A stretch of DNA of 64,000 bases from a virus (taxonomy: Duplodnaviria > Caudoviricetes): positions 1 through 64,000 of the IMG/VR virus record IMGVR_UViG_3300002446_000068; one strand, given 5' to 3'. Position 1 is the stretch's first letter; every line of letters starts with the position of its first letter. The translations under genes and the position numbers were made by a program. Below, in pieces: positions 4,531 to 63,200 of this stretch. The notes below the pieces were generated by a model. The model worked only from the letters and a program-made list of their open reading frames with translations. It was not told where the DNA came from and searched no databases.

Positions 4531-5249
4531 TCCTTGGTCCACCCCAGACAATCTTCACGCTTGCGCGGTTTGGTCATCCATGATGTGTCCGGCTCGGGAA
4601 TGGCAAGAGCCTGTTTGACGGTGAGCAGTTCTTTCACCCGCCAGTAGTTCTGCCGTCCAGCCCGACTTATCCAGGGCAAGAAGCCCTTTTCACAGATGGC
4701 CTTGTACACGTTGGCTGTAGCACGAACGTCTTGGGCCACGTATTCGAGAACCAAGTCCTGGTCGCGCCGGTTGTTGGCCCACATCGTAGGGGCCAGAGAA
4801 CCGTGCATCCCCTCTGTCTTGCCTGCAATCCCAAGACCCTGGGCCGCTGCTTCCAGCCCAATCATAAACCCCTTATCGCACAGCATGTGAAAGGCGATGT
4901 CCACGTGATTCATGGCCAGGTCCACACACACTAGTGCAGTGTGTGGGTCTCGGGCTTCCTCTGCAAGAACATCGAAATCGAAGCCCAGCCCGTTCCATGT
5001 GACGATGCTGTAGCCTGCTTGGTGCATTGTGTGCAGATAGTCTACCAATTGTGAGATTCGTTCCGGTGACATACTGGGGGCAAACATATCGCCGTTCTCA
5101 TCCAATACACCGTGCCACAGGGAAGGCTCCCCGTCATCGGCAACCGTAGCGGCGCAAGAAACGCCGAGTGGGCGAATCGTCCGCCAATTGTAGACACCTT
5201 CCGGTATCTCCTTTGTGATCTCCAAGTCAAATGCTACGAAGTGATTCAT
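4521..5249 (-). CDS. RNase H-like (DEDD/DnaQ-type) 3'-5' exonuclease domain protein
   Basis: VAFDLEIT (Exo I), IVTWNGLGFDF (Exo II), EYVAQDV (Exo III). Confidence 0.8.
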   Translation of the reverse strand: MNHFVAFDLEITKEIPEGVYNWRTIRPLGVSCAATVADDGEPSLWHGVLDENGDMFAPSMSPERISQLVDYLHTMHQAGYSIVTWNGLGFDFDVLAEEARDPHTALVCVDLAMNHVDIAFHMLCDKGFMIGLEAAAQGLGIAGKTEGMHGSLAPTMWANNRRDQDLVLEYVAQDVRATANVYKAICEKGFLPWISRAGRQNYWRVKELLTVKQALAIPEPDTSWMTKPRKREDCLGWTKEWL

Positions 5250-60442: not shown

Positions 60443-62092
60443 CTACCACGTGGCAAAGTCGCTGATTAGCTGCGGTGCAGCCGTATCGTACCCGACCACA
60501 TCCACCATCCCACCATCATTGGGGTCCGCAATTGAGAACCCCGTGCTGGTCATGCCGACCACTGCCAACTTGGCCGGAATGCCCATCTCACGCCGGTACT
60601 GCTTGAGGGCCTGTACAGGATGAATGCGACCGGCCCACGTTTCGTGGTCGGTATAGACAACGAATGTATCAATGGGCGTCTTGGTTTCCGTCGCGTAAAT
60701 CATCGGCAGGGAACAGTCGGTCCCGCCAAAGGGCAGGTTGTCCACTTCCCGCACCACATCATCCAGCCGTTGTCGCGGCGAGATGTTCAGCACCGATAGC
60801 GCGTCCCGGCCGCTACCGCTAGTGAACCCCACAAACATATGATTGGGTTCCACCTTTGCGGTGATGAGGGCCATCGCCGCCGACCCCACTCTCGGGGTTA
60901 CGCCGGTCATGCCTGCAATCTCACCACACGTCATGCTCCCTGATACGTCTAGGGCCAGCATCCAGCGCTTGCCGGTGCTTTCGACGTTGCCGAACGCCTG
61001 ATAGAACGCATCATCTAATGCGTCTATAATCTGTGGTACAGGCTCCCAGGTCTTGACATCCGAATCGGAAACACGACCCCTGCTGTGATAGCCCACCGCA
61101 CGTCCACGGGCCACCCCTGCCCCACCCTTGTAGGTATTCAGGGCCACCAGAATGGTGAGGGGATGGACCTTGGCGCGGAGCACAGCCTCACTGTCCAGCC
61201 GCGCGGCCACCAGGCTTGTAGCCGCCGACATCGGGGCCAGCAGACCCACACGAGTCATGTTCGCCAGATTACGAATCATGGCCGTCATGGGCATTTCTTC
61301 CAGCAGGGCCGCCCACACTTCCTTATCGGTCAGCCACTCGGTCGGAATCATTTCGCGGGTCAGCTTGTAGTCGCGGATATACTTGACAATCTGTGACGTC
61401 GTTTTGGCCCGCTTGGCCGACTCATACCCCACGATGGTGGGTATGTCGCTCGACGGGTCGGGCAAAGCGCCCTTCACCACCCAGGCAAAGATGTCCTGGT
61501 AGATTTCCTCCGTCGGATCCGGGTGAGACAGCCGCAGCAAGTCTCGGTGGGACCAGCCCTCCCGCTGTTGATACTTGACGACCTGGTAGGCCAAGTGCGC
61601 CGGGCTTTTGCTCAAGTACCAGTTGGCCACGGCCTCGCGCAGCGACCGCCCCCAGCCCCGAAAGTGCTCCACATAATCCACGTACTTGAACAAGTGGGCA
61701 CCGGTACGCGCCACAAGCGGCAGGCTTTCGAGTGCGTACAGACTTGCAAGCCCGGAGCACTCCGGCGATGACGCCAATGCCAATGCGAACAGGGCAGCGT
61801 CGTTCTTGGGCGCACGCCCTACCCTGCTCACTTCGACGATACGGTCCACCGTCCGTCGCCCATCCGCTTTGAGGCAGCGGATAACGCATTCTGCATTCGC
61901 AACAGTTAGCTCCGCCGCACTTGCGTAGTAGGTGGGGGAGTCCGACCCCAGGATAAGGAACCGGTCCAGCCTGGCCCAGTCGTCCAGGGCAAAGGCAAAC
62001 CCACCCGCACTATTGCGCACCTGGTCGGTGCCGGGGATGGGTTGGGATTGCGGCGTCTGCCGCGTGGAAAAAGCGTCCGTGTACTTCATCAT
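60443..62092 (-). CDS. rsr: Ro60/Rsr ortholog (TROVE + vWA domain RNA-binding protein)
   Basis: NSAGGFAF..DDWARLDRFLILGS...TYYA, KYQQREGWSHRDLLRLSH, LALDVSGSM MIDAS, VVYTDHETW; AAGGAGG RBS before ATG 62092/62089. Confidence 0.95.
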   Translation of the reverse strand: MMKYTDAFSTRQTPQSQPIPGTDQVRNSAGGFAFALDDWARLDRFLILGSDSPTYYASAAELTVANAECVIRCLKADGRRTVDRIVEVSRVGRAPKNDAALFALALASSPECSGLASLYALESLPLVARTGAHLFKYVDYVEHFRGWGRSLREAVANWYLSKSPAHLAYQVVKYQQREGWSHRDLLRLSHPDPTEEIYQDIFAWVVKGALPDPSSDIPTIVGYESAKRAKTTSQIVKYIRDYKLTREMIPTEWLTDKEVWAALLEEMPMTAMIRNLANMTRVGLLAPMSAATSLVAARLDSEAVLRAKVHPLTILVALNTYKGGAGVARGRAVGYHSRGRVSDSDVKTWEPVPQIIDALDDAFYQAFGNVESTGKRWMLALDVSGSMTCGEIAGMTGVTPRVGSAAMALITAKVEPNHMFVGFTSGSGRDALSVLNISPRQRLDDVVREVDNLPFGGTDCSLPMIYATETKTPIDTFVVYTDHETWAGRIHPVQALKQYRREMGIPAKLAVVGMTSTGFSIADPNDGGMVDVVGYDTAAPQLISDFATW

Positions 62093-62176
62093 CGACCCTC
62101 CTTTGGGATAAATTGGCGTGTGGAGCCGAAACCCCACACGCCTGACTATTTGGGGCATCCACCCCGGAACGCTTGG

Positions 62177-62242
62177 TGGGCTAGTATTTGTAGTCGGGAA
62201 TTTCATACCCGAAGTGTTTGATAACCGACCACATCCGGCCCA
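62177..62242 (-). ncRNA. Y RNA 4 (end-paired, YrlB/animal-like topology)
   Basis: TGGGCCGG/CTAGCCCA lower stem; TGTGGTCGG/CCGACTACA upper stem; GGTTATC; TATAAT 5 nt upstream (62253-62248). Confidence 0.8.
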
Positions 62243-62284
62243 CACATATTATAAACGCTGTGCGTTTAATATCATCTCTTATAC

Positions 62285-62340
62285 GGGCGAATGATTGTGG
62301 TGGGAGATTCTTATGATAGATAACCCACCAACTCCGGCCC
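62285..62340 (-). ncRNA. Y RNA 3 (56-nt minimal, end-paired)
   Basis: GGGC(C)GGA/TTCGCCC bulged-C helix; TGGTGGG/CCCACCA upper stem; GGTTATC. Confidence 0.8.
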
Positions 62341-62352
62341 GAGCTTTCCTGT

Positions 62353-62481
62353 GGAGAGAAGTGGGATTTGAACCCACATCACTCGATTACAAGTCGATAA
62401 CCGATAACCTCCGGCCCACCTACCGTTAGGGCTAAACATGGCATCGGTGTTTCAGTGCTCTACCATTGAGCTATTCTCTCC
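62353..62481 (-). ncRNA. Y RNA 2: tRNA(UGU)-Y RNA chimera
   Basis: 8-bp acceptor GGAGAGAA/TTCTCTCC, D arm GCTC-AATGGTA-GAGC, anticodon loop CTTGTAA, T arm GTGGG-TTCAAAT-CCCAC, 57-nt Y module insert. Confidence 0.85.
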
Positions 62482-62488
62482 ATGTAGG

Positions 62489-62612
62489 GAGAGGGGGCGG
62501 GAATCGAACCCACGTCCTAAGGTCCCATTAGATAACCAACCACAGTCGGCCAAATCGGCAAGGGTATTGCGGTCGGATCAACCTTATGCCTTACCACTAG
62601 GCTACCCCTCTC
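62489..62612 (-). ncRNA. Y RNA 1: YrlA-like tRNA mimic
   Basis: 8-bp acceptor GAGAGGGG/CCCCTCTC, D arm GCC-TAGTGGTAA-GGC, stem TAAGG/CCTTA, Y module with TTGCC/GGC(C)GA helix in place of anticodon loop, T arm GTGGG-TTCGATT-CCCGC. Confidence 0.85.
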
Positions 62613-62619
62613 ACATTCT

Positions 62620-62647
62620 ATTATAGGGAATCCACATTCCCTGTAAA
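62620..62647 (-). promoter_or_regulatory. Promoter of Y RNA-Ro60 operon
   Basis: TTTACA-N16-TATAAT, 7 nt before Y RNA 1. Confidence 0.8.
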
Positions 62648-63172: not shown

Positions 63173-63200
63173 ATTATAGGAAACCCACGGATTCTGTAAA
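63173..63200 (-). promoter_or_regulatory. Promoter
   Basis: TTTACA-N16-TATAAT. Confidence 0.7.

What the first reader, a model, noticed from the sequence alone, without database searches (positions are those of the whole stretch)
62353..62481. A complete tRNA(UGU) with a Y RNA module inserted into its anticodon stem
Seen: deleting 57 nt (TGAAACACCG...ATCGGTTA) from RNA2 restores a cloverleaf: GAGAGAA TA GCTC-AATGGTA-GAGC A CTCGA-CTTGTAA-TCGAG TGAT GTGGG-TTCAAAT-CCCAC TTCTCTC. It has a canonical C-U-UGU-A-A anticodon loop (Thr), an extra G:C pair and no encoded CCA. In RNA1 the Y module instead replaces the anticodon loop, as expected for YrlA. Inference: RNA2 is an independent tRNA-Y fusion that keeps a displayable anticodon loop. 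It could be a Ro60-tethered decoy for anticodon nucleases or modification enzymes, a precursor whose insert is removed to yield a tRNA-Thr, or an evolutionary intermediate of YrlA.
Basis: partly seen in the sequence, partly recalled or inferred. Interest (0 to 1): 0.88.

Follow-up and report, generated by a model that had tools for sequence, protein, structure and literature searches.

The report
tRNA-shaped Y RNA keeping anticodon arm
Just upstream of a phage's Ro60 gene lies a small RNA built like a whole tRNA, with the Ro60-docking hairpin branching from its anticodon stem. Its intact anticodon-like arm recurs, one copy per locus, beside Ro60 genes in many phages and bacteria, with a three-letter centre that changes freely, so it is a tRNA look-alike rather than a working threonine tRNA.

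Summary
RNA2 has an 8-bp acceptor stem, D and T arms, a 57-nt Ro60-binding (Y) hairpin, and a 4-bp hairpin with loop CUUGUAA closed by C27:G43. With the 57 nt removed in silico, ARAGORN calls tRNA-Thr(UGU).

RNA2 is not an isolated fusion. Across 180 Ro60 loci I found 104 Y RNAs in tRNA gene order, with strongly covarying acceptor stems. This order is the circular permutation of published YrlA.

The small hairpin is the stem-loop that Chen et al. (2014) called "V". My data put it in the anticodon-arm position:
- 7-nt-loop hairpins are enriched: 85 of 171 against 28±5 in shuffles.
- The loop follows the anticodon-loop pattern: U33 84%, R37 91%, A38 72%.
- A long-range 27:43 pair forms in 49 of 59.
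- A 4-5-nt variable loop follows.

Of the 57 loci that have such a unit, 55 have exactly one. The central triplet is hypervariable (49% against 9% of sites differ between close relatives). It includes A34 triplets and Ser/Leu/Tyr triplets on short-arm bodies. UGU is therefore not conserved, and a decoding or spliced tRNA-Thr is unlikely.

The best reading is a non-decoding tRNA mimic tethered to Ro60. A role as bait remains open. This scan has reported the same design on other DNA.

The parts
62620..62647 (-). Promoter-like site TTTACA-16-TATAAT. It ends 7 nt before the first base of RNA1.
   Evidence: 11 of 12 matches. This is a consensus match only. A similar site lies at 63200-63173.
62489..62612 (-). 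RNA1: a tRNA-order Y RNA without an anticodon-like arm. Its Y module is enclosed by a 5-bp anticodon stem, UAAGG/CCUUA. It has an 8-bp acceptor stem counting G-1:C73.
   Evidence: Rfam tRNA model 54.6 bits. Model R2 69.4 bits. Y motif at 62551-62531.
62353..62481 (-). RNA2: the finding. A tRNA-order Y RNA with acceptor stem, D arm, Y hairpin, anticodon-like arm and T arm.
   Evidence: Rfam tRNA model 49.2 bits. Model R2 97.7 bits, but RNA2 was in that model's seed. ARAGORN calls tRNA-Thr(UGU) after in-silico deletion. Coordinates verified.
62398..62454 (-). The 57-nt Y module of RNA2. It comprises the linker UGAAAC, an upper stem ACCGAU/AUCGGU, the internal loop carrying GGCCGGAG, a terminal stem GCCC/GGGC closed by a loop, and UUA.
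   Evidence: Y motif GGCCGGAGGTTATCGGTTATC at 62416-62396 (4 copies in the window against 0.1 expected). Both stems covary in 104 relatives: 86.7% and 99.5% paired.
62382..62397 (-). Anticodon-arm mimic UCGA-CUUGUAA-UCGA plus G43, which pairs with C27 at 62455. The UGU triplet is at 62391-62389.
62281..62343 (-). RNA3: a minimal Y RNA hairpin, GGGCCGGAGUUGGUGGGUUAUC ... CCCACCACAAUCAUUCGCCCG.
   Evidence: Fold z = -2.65. Y motif. Weak match to the nematode RNA family RF01656, 29 bits, E 0.01.
62172..62246 (-). RNA4: a second minimal Y RNA hairpin. A promoter-like site lies at 62275-62248.
60443..62092 (-). Ro60/Rsr gene, 549 aa.
   Evidence: Pfam TROVE 2.4e-44 and vWA_Ro60 5.3e-63. phrog_850 9.5e-89.

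Best explanation
RNA2 is a Y RNA of the YrlA kind, built in ordinary tRNA gene order. It has an open acceptor stem, a D arm and a T arm. A hairpin-closed Ro60-binding module branches from the 5' strand of the anticodon stem between positions 27 and 28. Below that branch point it keeps a complete anticodon-arm look-alike: the 27:43 closing pair, 4 further pairs, a 7-nt loop of the form C-U-NNN-A-A, and then a normal 4-5-nt variable loop.

Shown here:
- the architecture;
- its conservation and covariation across relatives;
- its position beside Ro60;
- exactly one such unit in 55 of the 57 loci that have any;
- free variation of the central triplet.

Inferred:
- RNA1 to RNA4 are probably transcribed from the promoter-like sites at 62647 and 62275.
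- Host RNase P and 3' processing with CCA addition probably cut out the tRNA-shaped units. This has been reported for M. smegmatis YrlA.
- The phage Ro60 binds the Y stem.
- The tRNA-shaped part, anticodon arm included, makes the particle look like a whole tRNA to a host tRNA-handling protein and brings that protein or its substrates to Ro60. Ro60 in other systems works with PNPase.

RNA2 does not decode, and UGU carries no conserved meaning.
For: Identity and layout:
- The Rfam tRNA model matches RNA2 and RNA1.
- They are the only tRNA-model matches in this 72,957-bp phage record, which CheckV estimates to be complete.
- Four Y motifs lie just upstream of a TROVE plus vWA_Ro60 gene.

tRNA-order family (104 members in 65 loci):
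- 93.6% of cells are paired, against 73.3% in shuffles and 38-55% when partners are slid.
- 667 cells show changes on both sides of a pair, against 156 in shuffles.
- The acceptor stem is 99.3% paired, and all 7 of its pairs show compensatory changes.
- RNAalifold predicts the acceptor, D, T and terminal Y stems de novo.

Anticodon-like arm:
- Hairpins of at least 4 bp with a 7-nt loop: 37 observed, 7.4±2.5 expected. For at least 3 bp: 85 against 28±5. Loop sizes 4-6 and 8 show little or no excess; the 9-nt excess fits the same hairpins with the last pair open.
- Loop composition: U33 in 71/85, R37 in 77/85, A38 in 61/85, with positions 34-35 close to uniform. This is close to the real tRNAs in the same loci.
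- N27:N43 pairs in 49/59, against 31±2.4 in shuffles, as C:G 35, G:C 7, U:A 6 and A:U 1.
- By layout, the pair forms in 17/18 YrlA-order and 32/41 tRNA-order elements; slid controls give 1-16.
- The variable loop is 5 nt (46 cases) or 4 nt (16 cases) and ends in a pyrimidine in 64/67.
- Exactly one such unit is present in 55 of the 57 loci that have any.

Non-decoding:
- The triplet differs at 49% of sites against 9% for the flanks, in 15 independent close pairs (Fisher p = 1e-10).
- A34 is 14% against 2% in real tRNAs.
- Ser (GCU, UGA), Leu (UAA) and Tyr (GUA) triplets sit on short-variable-loop bodies.

From the literature:
- YrlA binds Rsr, is modified by TruB and DusA, and in M. smegmatis is cut by RNase P and gains CCA (PMC4201824).
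- The phage phiLo Ro60 binds phage Y-like RNAs and host PNPase (PMC12135203).
Against: - There are no expression, end-mapping, binding or modification data for this phage.
- In a 2D energy model, RNA2 alone prefers a competing hairpin by 7.5 kcal/mol.
- Elements in the loop and 27:43 statistics were chosen for having a hairpin, so stem pairing itself is partly by construction. The shuffle enrichment, the loop composition and the 27:43 pair are the unbiased parts.
- The model-fitted alignment gives only 68.7% pairing for the arm across all 104 members. Many of them lack the arm, and the arm sits in two registers.
- The partner of the tRNA-like domain is unknown for every YrlA.
- The phage has no RtcB and no CCA-adding enzyme, so any repair link or 3' maturation would depend on the host.
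Confidence: 0.75

Rival explanations
1. Bait or decoy. The displayed anticodon arm is there to be read by enzymes that act on anticodon loops. These could be host anticodon nucleases used in defence or toxin systems, or loop-modifying enzymes such as the t6A37 machinery. Ro60 would then capture, block or report that event. The fast-changing triplet would reflect an arms race.
For: - The loop keeps the anticodon-loop frame (U33, R37, A38) while positions 34-36 are the most variable sites of the module.
- 55 of the 57 loci with such a unit have exactly one.
- U36 is over-represented, 41/85. From my own knowledge of t6A determinants, U36-A37 is their core.
- The published context links Ro60 and YrlA to RNA repair operons that are induced by damaged tRNAs (10.1101/312249; PMC7790460, listed).
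Against: - Hypervariable positions 34-36 are equally expected if those positions are simply unconstrained.
- The U36 excess comes largely from a few recurring triplets: 11 of 31 distinct triplet types end in U.
- No nuclease, ligase or modification gene lies next to the RNAs here.
- Nothing was tested biochemically.
Confidence: 0.2
2. Structural remnant. The hairpin is an inherited anticodon arm kept only because it stabilises the three-way junction and the L-shape. Nothing reads the loop.
For: - About a third of Ro60 loci with tRNA-like Y RNAs show no such arm (30 of 87 in my scan).
- RNA1 in this window lacks one.
- Salmonella YrlA 'lacks the anticodon loop' (10.1101/312249). The arm is therefore dispensable for some members.
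- The triplet is free to vary.
Against: - Loop length (exactly 7), U33, R37 and A38 are held across phages and several bacterial phyla whose Ro60 proteins are only about 50% identical.
- A junction cap would tolerate any stable loop.
- One unit per locus suggests a dedicated role.
Confidence: 0.25
3. Precursor of a working tRNA-Thr(UGU): the 57-nt Y module is removed and the halves are joined. Alternatively, the unspliced RNA decodes ACN codons.
For: - ARAGORN calls tRNA-Thr(UGU) once the insert is deleted.
- Thr is a class-I isotype, so the body is not inconsistent with it.
- The Levitt pair A15:U48 and the C27:G43 pair are in place (sequence).
Against: - Relatives carry triplets that no decoder would carry: AUU five times, AGG, AUC, and Ser, Leu and Tyr triplets on class-I bodies.
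- D and T arms are nearly invariant across the apparent 'isotypes'.
- The triplet is not conserved, even in L002.
- The insert carries a conserved, covarying Ro-binding helix.
- It sits at 27/28, not at the canonical intron site 37/38.
- At 57 nt it is too small for a group I intron.
- I see no bulge-helix-bulge, and no bacterial enzyme for such excision is reported (10.1101/312249).
- The phage has no other tRNA.
Confidence: 0.03
4. The UGU loop does not form in this particular RNA. RNA2 adopts the competing 8-bp hairpin that uses up the variable loop.
For: The MFE and the centroid of RNA2 both contain AUC.ACUUG-UAAU-CGAGU.GAU, which is 7.5 kcal/mol better than the cloverleaf with the anticodon-like arm.
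Against: - By my inspection of the sequences, the competitor cannot form in L002, L088 or L092.
- It would break U48 and the 27:43 pair, both of which are conserved across the family.
- 2D energy models ignore the tertiary contacts of tRNA.
Confidence: 0.1

Closest known systems
YrlA (Y RNA-like A; Rfam RF02553; Chen et al. 2014, PMC4201824; structure in Wang et al. 2018, 10.1101/312249)
   Same: - Encoded next to Ro60/Rsr on the same strand.
- Has a Ro-binding 5'-strand motif of the GNCGAA type, followed by YUAY (here GGCCGGAG ... UUAUC).
- D and T arms are nearly invariant and tRNA-like, with a Levitt pair (A15:U48 here).
- A stem-loop lies between YUAY and the T arm, which Chen et al. call 'V'.
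   Different: - The gene order is circularly permuted. Here the D arm is 5' of the T arm, the acceptor stem is open (8 bp), and the Y stem is closed by a loop. Published YrlA has T before D, a closed acceptor loop, and its ends at the Y stem.
- The Rfam YrlA model gives only 21 bits (E 0.99; gathering score 69), and that match spans the RNA1/RNA2 junction.
- The 'V' element is described as a less-conserved variable arm, and Salmonella YrlA as lacking an anticodon loop. My data place the element in the anticodon-arm position, closed by 27:43.
M. smegmatis YrlA after processing (Chen et al. 2014)
   Same: It has a 7-bp acceptor stem recognised by RNase P, with CCA added in vivo. The mature particle therefore has an open, tRNA-like acceptor end, as RNA2 would have from the start.
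   Different: There the open end arises by cutting a closed loop, which leaves two base-paired pieces. Here a single chain has it by gene order. Processing of RNA2 is inferred, not shown.
D. radiodurans Yrn1 (Chen et al. 2014)
   Same: It is a Y RNA that can be drawn with a potential 'anticodon arm' (5-bp stem), and whose T and D order differs from YrlA.
   Different: In Yrn1 the Ro-binding stem takes the acceptor position, the loop has 6 nt, and no full D arm is evident. In RNA2 the acceptor stem is a real one and the loop has 7 nt with U33 and A37.
Circularly permuted and intron-containing pre-tRNAs of algae and archaea (cited in 10.1101/312249)
   Same: They are topological relatives: the same tRNA parts in another order, or interrupted by extra RNA.
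   Different: Those are processed by the splicing endonuclease and a ligase into decoding tRNAs. RNA2's insert is a conserved protein-binding module at 27/28. I saw no bulge-helix-bulge, and the family's triplets rule out decoding.
Metazoan Y RNAs and nematode stem-bulge RNAs (Rfam RF01656)
   Same: RNA3 and RNA4, and the Y module of RNA2, share the stem-bulge-stem handle. The simple hairpins in L016 and L011 score above the RF01656 gathering score, at 41 and 40.6 bits.
   Different: Those RNAs have no tRNA body.

Membership tests
YrlA (Rfam RF02553 / Chen et al. 2014) | Encoded within 4 kb of a Ro60/TROVE gene, on the same strand | tested here: met
   RNA2 ends 260 nt upstream of the Ro60 start codon, on the same strand.
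YrlA (Rfam RF02553 / Chen et al. 2014) | Ro-binding motif GNCGAAN0-1G on the Y-stem strand, followed by conserved YUAY | tested here: inconclusive
   RNA2 has GCCGGAG (G where the motif has the first A) followed by UUAUC. RNA1 has GCCGACUG. The wider pattern GGCCGR-N8-GGTTATC occurs 4 times in the window against 0.1 expected. This is a near match, and binding was not tested.
YrlA (Rfam RF02553 / Chen et al. 2014) | tRNA-like D and T arms with conserved elbow nucleotides | tested here: met
   Rfam tRNA model 49.2 bits. D and T stems are 99% paired in 104 relatives.
YrlA (Rfam RF02553 / Chen et al. 2014) | T arm 5' of D arm, acceptor-like stem closed by a loop, RNA ends at the Y stem | tested here: not met
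   In RNA2 the D arm is 5' of the T arm, the acceptor stem is open, and the Y stem is closed. The YrlA model scores 21.1 bits (E 0.99) against a gathering score of 69, and only across the RNA1/RNA2 junction. The covarying acceptor stem proves the tRNA order.
YrlA (Rfam RF02553 / Chen et al. 2014) | Binding to Rsr/Ro60; modification by TruB and DusA | not testable with these tools
   No RNA data could be obtained.
Decoding tRNA (tRNA-Thr UGU) | Continuous cloverleaf recognised by tRNA finders | tested here: not met
   ARAGORN finds no gene on the native sequence. It finds one only after in-silico removal of 57 nt.
Decoding tRNA (tRNA-Thr UGU) | Anticodon conserved in orthologues and consistent with the tRNA body | tested here: not met
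   L002 has UGA. The triplet differs at 49% of sites between close relatives. The family includes A34 triplets and class-II isotype triplets on class-I bodies.
Decoding tRNA (tRNA-Thr UGU) | Aminoacylation and use on the ribosome | not testable with these tools
   This needs an experiment.
Intron-containing pre-tRNA | Intron at 37/38 with a bulge-helix-bulge, or a group I intron in the anticodon loop | tested here: not met
   The insert lies between 27 and 28. It is 57 nt long and is a conserved Ro-binding helix. By inspection I saw no bulge-helix-bulge.
tRNA-order Y RNAs beside Ro60 (a family defined in this scan, not published as far as I could search) | Acceptor, D arm, closed Y hairpin, T arm and acceptor in one chain next to Ro60 | tested here: met
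   Model R2 gives 97.7 bits for RNA2 (a seed member) and 69.4 bits for RNA1 (not in the seed). There are 104 members in 65 loci.

The most novel reading that the evidence does not exclude
The one-per-locus anticodon-arm mimic, with its fast-changing triplet, is a programmable bait. Each phage or bacterium would display to Ro60 the anticodon arm targeted by a particular anticodon nuclease or loop-reading enzyme. The Ro60 particle would then sense, soak up or counter tRNA-directed attack. This would give the tRNA-like domain of YrlA-type Y RNAs its long-missing function.
Probability: 0.15. Interest if true: 0.85.

Novelty: new variant of a known kind. Interest (0 to 1): 0.6.

Why it matters
What the tRNA-like half of bacterial and phage Y RNAs does has been open since 2014. 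This locus and its relatives add three points.

First, a common form of these RNAs is wired like a real tRNA, so ordinary tRNA processing can release it from an operon transcript.

Second, the stem-loop filed as a "variable arm" sits where the anticodon arm belongs. It keeps the anticodon-loop frame and is closed by a conserved 27:43 pair, so many of these RNAs imitate the whole tRNA, not only its elbow.

Third, the three central letters change faster than anything around them. These points turn a vague "tRNA mimic" into specific experiments on loop-reading enzymes, RNase P and CCA processing, and Ro60 architecture.

There are two further consequences:
- The tandem tRNA-order units bear on the published idea that YrlA arose from dimeric tRNA transcripts.
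- Genome annotators already mislabel such RNAs as tRNAs or tRNA pseudogenes.

Tried and rejected
RNA ends, CCA addition and any spliced form remain untested.
- Rfam YrlA model. It gives only a 21-bit match spanning RNA1's T arm and RNA2's D arm. It also scores known-type phage YrlAs at only 36-52 bits. It is not useful for this family.
- Cross-unit folding. RNA1's 3' acceptor strand could pair with RNA2's 5' strand (CUCUCC/GGAGAG), which would imitate a canonical YrlA. Folding RNA1 and RNA2 together keeps the within-unit acceptor stems, so I rejected this as the main fold.
- Fixed-register pairing test. Counting from the end of the GGUUAYC motif gave a real but blurred signal: 299 of 472 cells paired against 241±7. 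The arm occurs in two registers (UC-NN and CC-N).
- Alignment limits. MAFFT placed gaps inside the 3' strand of the arm. As a result RNAalifold on A4 did not predict the arm, and the model-fitted alignment under-counts it.
- Model R1 (arm plus T arm). It also matches real tRNAs, so its alignment A3 was not used for counting.
- Context genes. There is no RtcB and no CCA-adding enzyme in the phage. Neighbouring ORFs have no Pfam or PHROG function beyond Ro60, a DnaB-like helicase, a Rad52-like protein and an exonuclease-like fragment.
- Literature. Sim & Wolin 2018, Sim et al. 2020 and Burroughs & Aravind 2016 are not held. I cannot exclude that they mention tRNA-order forms or the anticodon-like nature of 'V'. 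Searches on YrlA-related terms found no such description.
- U36 excess as a pointer to t6A. I kept it only as a lead, because it rests on a few recurring triplets.

Full report
**What is there**

The window is the first 64 kb of a 72,957-bp IMG/VR phage record that CheckV estimates to be complete. On the minus strand, a promoter-like site (62647-62620) is followed by four small RNAs and then a Ro60/Rsr gene. The gene is at 62092-60443 and matches TROVE and vWA_Ro60.

Each of the four RNAs carries the motif GGCCGR-N8-GGTTATC. That gives 4 copies in the window against 0.1 expected.
- RNA1 (62612-62489) and RNA2 (62481-62353) match the Rfam tRNA model at 54.6 and 49.2 bits, with 55- and 70-nt insertions in the anticodon region.
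- RNA3 and RNA4 are bare Y hairpins.
- ARAGORN finds no tRNA anywhere in the window. RNA1 and RNA2 are the only tRNA-model matches in the genome.

**Checking the observation**

- an 8-bp acceptor stem;
- the D arm;
- A26 and C27;
- exactly 57 nt (UGAAACACCG...AUCGGUUA);
- UCGA-CUUGUAA-UCGA, then G43;
- variable loop UGAU;
- the T arm and the acceptor 3' strand;
- no encoded CCA.

When the 57 nt are deleted in a script, ARAGORN calls tRNA-Thr(UGU). RNA1 instead has a 5-bp stem, UAAGG/CCUUA, that encloses its Y module.

One caveat applies. A 2D energy model of RNA2 alone prefers a competing hairpin, at -45.8 against -38.3 kcal/mol. By my inspection that competitor cannot form in three relatives, L002, L088 and L092.

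**Relatives**

I collected Ro60 loci from several sources:
- 15 and then 80 viral contigs;
- 80 bacterial contigs;
- four annotated phages.

A script looked for T arms, D arms and acceptor pairing in both possible gene orders. Of 171 T arms linked to a Y motif, 96 lie in tRNA order and 36 in the published YrlA order.

I then built a covariance model on 38 tRNA-order members. It finds 104 such RNAs in 65 loci. On their alignment:
- 93.6% of cells are paired, against 73.3% in shuffles and 38-55% when partners are slid.
- 667 cells show changes on both sides of a pair, against 156 in shuffles.
- The acceptor stem is 99.3% paired, and every one of its pairs shows compensatory changes.

RNAalifold predicts the acceptor, D, T and terminal Y stems without guidance.

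The tRNA order is therefore real and common, in phages and in Myxococcota, Chloroflexota, Armatimonadota, Gemmatimonadota and others. It is the circular permutation of YrlA as published. There the T arm precedes the D arm, the acceptor stem is a closed loop, and the ends lie at the Y stem.

**The anticodon-like arm**

The hairpin lies between the conserved UUAYC and the T arm, and this region is contiguous in both layouts.

*Enrichment.* Hairpins with a 7-nt loop placed 4-7 nt before the T stem are strongly enriched:
- at least 4 bp: 37 observed against 7.4±2.5 in shuffles;
- at least 3 bp: 85 against 28±5.

Loop sizes 4-6 and 8 show little or no excess. The 9-nt excess fits the same hairpins with their last pair open.

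*Loop composition.* This was not used to select the elements, and it follows the anticodon-loop pattern:
- position 32: C 50, U 15, A 17;
- U33: 71/85;
- positions 34-35: near uniform;
- R37: 77/85;
- A38: 61/85.

This is close to the 252 real tRNAs in the same loci. The exceptions are A32 (20% against 2%) and A34 (14% against 2%).

*Long-range pair.* The second base after the D stem (N27) pairs with the fifth base after the loop (N43) in 49 of 59 elements, against 31±2.4 when partners are shuffled. The pairs are C:G 35, G:C 7, U:A 6 and A:U 1.
- It forms in 17 of 18 YrlA-order elements. One of these is mycobacteriophage LinStu, from a group of mycobacteriophages in which Chen et al. identified YrlA.
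- It forms in 32 of 41 tRNA-order elements.
- Slid controls give 1-16.
- In the model-fitted alignment of all 104 members it is 83% paired, with 35 double changes.

*Variable loop.* After N43 come 5 nt (46 cases) or 4 nt (16 cases), ending in a pyrimidine in 64 of 67. That is an ordinary class-I variable loop.

The hairpin therefore occupies positions 28-42 of a tRNA, closed by 27:43, and the Y stem branches off between 27 and 28. It is also the stem-loop that Chen et al. (2014) named 'V' and equated with the variable arm, calling it less conserved. Wang et al. (2018) describe Salmonella YrlA, which has no such hairpin, as lacking the anticodon loop.

**What the triplet says**

Among loci with any such arm, 55 of 57 have exactly one, often beside one to three arm-less units such as RNA1.

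The central triplet is not conserved:
- L002, the relative with the closest Ro60 in the first search, has CUUGAAA.
- L088 has CUUCUAA on the same UCGA stem.
- L092 has CUUGUAA, but in the YrlA order.

In 15 independent pairs of close relatives, positions 34-36 differ at 49% of sites, against 9% for 39 flanking sites (Fisher p = 1e-10).

Triplets include AUU (5 cases), AGG and AUC. Ser, Leu and Tyr triplets appear on bodies with short variable loops, and the D and T arms stay nearly invariant throughout.

These RNAs are paralogues of one family and not derivatives of different tRNAs, and they are not decoders.

**Mechanism**

*Shown:*
- the architecture;
- its conservation;
- its linkage to Ro60;
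- one arm-bearing unit per locus;
- a free triplet.

*Inferred from published YrlA work:*
- Ro60 binds the Y helix.
- RNase P and 3' trimming with CCA addition release the tRNA-shaped units from the operon transcript.
- The tRNA-shaped half recruits a host tRNA-handling factor to Ro60, and possibly PNPase.

The tRNA order gives natural processing sites, and after processing its product would resemble RNase P-cleaved M. smegmatis YrlA.

Two questions stay open.
- The arm's 3' strand runs straight into N43, while a linker (UGAAAC in RNA2) joins N27 to the Y stem. I therefore expect the arm, not the Y stem, to stack under 27:43. That is inference only.
- Whether the loop is read (the bait rival) or merely caps the junction (the remnant rival) cannot be decided here. 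A hypervariable triplet fits both.

**Novelty and earlier notes**

In the papers I could search, I found neither the tRNA-order layout nor the anticodon-arm reading of 'V'. Three key reviews are not held.

Earlier agents of this scan reported tRNA-order Y RNAs and anticodon-arm mimics on other genomes. My tests here agree with them. They add the 27:43 pair, the one-per-locus rule and the triplet-rate test.

I class this as a new variant of a known kind (YrlA-type Y RNAs), and RNA2 itself as a typical member of that variant.

Noticed in passing
window 62457-62517 (-): The weak Rfam YrlA match (21 bits) runs from RNA1's T arm to RNA2's D arm. RNA1's 3' acceptor strand and RNA2's 5' strand could form a 6-bp stem, CUCUCC/GGAGAG. 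Tandem tRNA-order units thus contain a latent canonical YrlA, which bears on the published dimeric-tRNA origin model.
   Followed up: partly
L017 (Gordonia phage Boopy MK894436) 1253-1341 and 1460-1527: The record annotates a 68-nt tRNA-Ile(GAU), and an 89-nt tRNA-Leu that overlaps a tRNA-Gln. These lie over Y RNAs whose arm loops read CUGAUAA and AUUGGGA. tRNA finders seem to take the Y-RNA arm for an anticodon arm, so such RNAs are mislabelled as tRNAs in phage records.
   Followed up: partly
L019 (Rhodococcus phage Trina NC_042040) 4674-4882 and 2029-2883: A 209-nt 'tRNA-OTHER' pseudogene is annotated directly upstream of Ro60, and a Band-7-like membrane protein directly downstream. This recalls the published Band-7-associated tRNA idea.
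   Followed up: no
window 62281-62343 (-); L016 3404-3475; L011 3240-3313: Minimal phage Y hairpins match the nematode RNA family RF01656. From my own knowledge, these nematode RNAs are regarded as Y-RNA relatives. Two of the matches are above the gathering score (41 and 40.6 bits), and RNA3 scores 29 bits.
   Followed up: no
window 63173-63200 (-) and 62620-62647 (-): Two copies of the same promoter-like sequence (TTTACA-16-TATAAT, with similar flanks such as ctattatagg...ctgtaaa) precede the 153-aa ORF and the Y RNA array. They may be a phage promoter class.
   Followed up: no
L139, L163, L179, L113 and other bacterial loci: In many Myxococcota, Chloroflexota and Armatimonadota contigs the Ro60 gene sits inside dense arrays of ordinary tRNA genes, ten or more in 6.6 kb, alongside two to four tRNA-order Y RNAs.
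   Followed up: no
L168, L169, L173, L176 (Gemmatimonadota) and L017 1261-1302: These five arm-plus-T-arm modules share the UCGA/UCGA stem and are nearly identical to one another, except in the triplet and a few other sites. The loops read CUUGGGA, CUGUGGA, CUUCGGA, CUCCAAC and AUUGGGA. It is a compact example of triplet turnover, and one of the five comes from a Gordonia phage.
   Followed up: partly
window 62612 and 62481 (-): Both RNA1 and RNA2 have an eighth acceptor pair, G-1:C73, which from my own knowledge is the arrangement of bacterial tRNA-His. It is not conserved in relatives; L002, for example, has A73. For RNA1 the G-1 lies about where transcription would start.
   Followed up: partly
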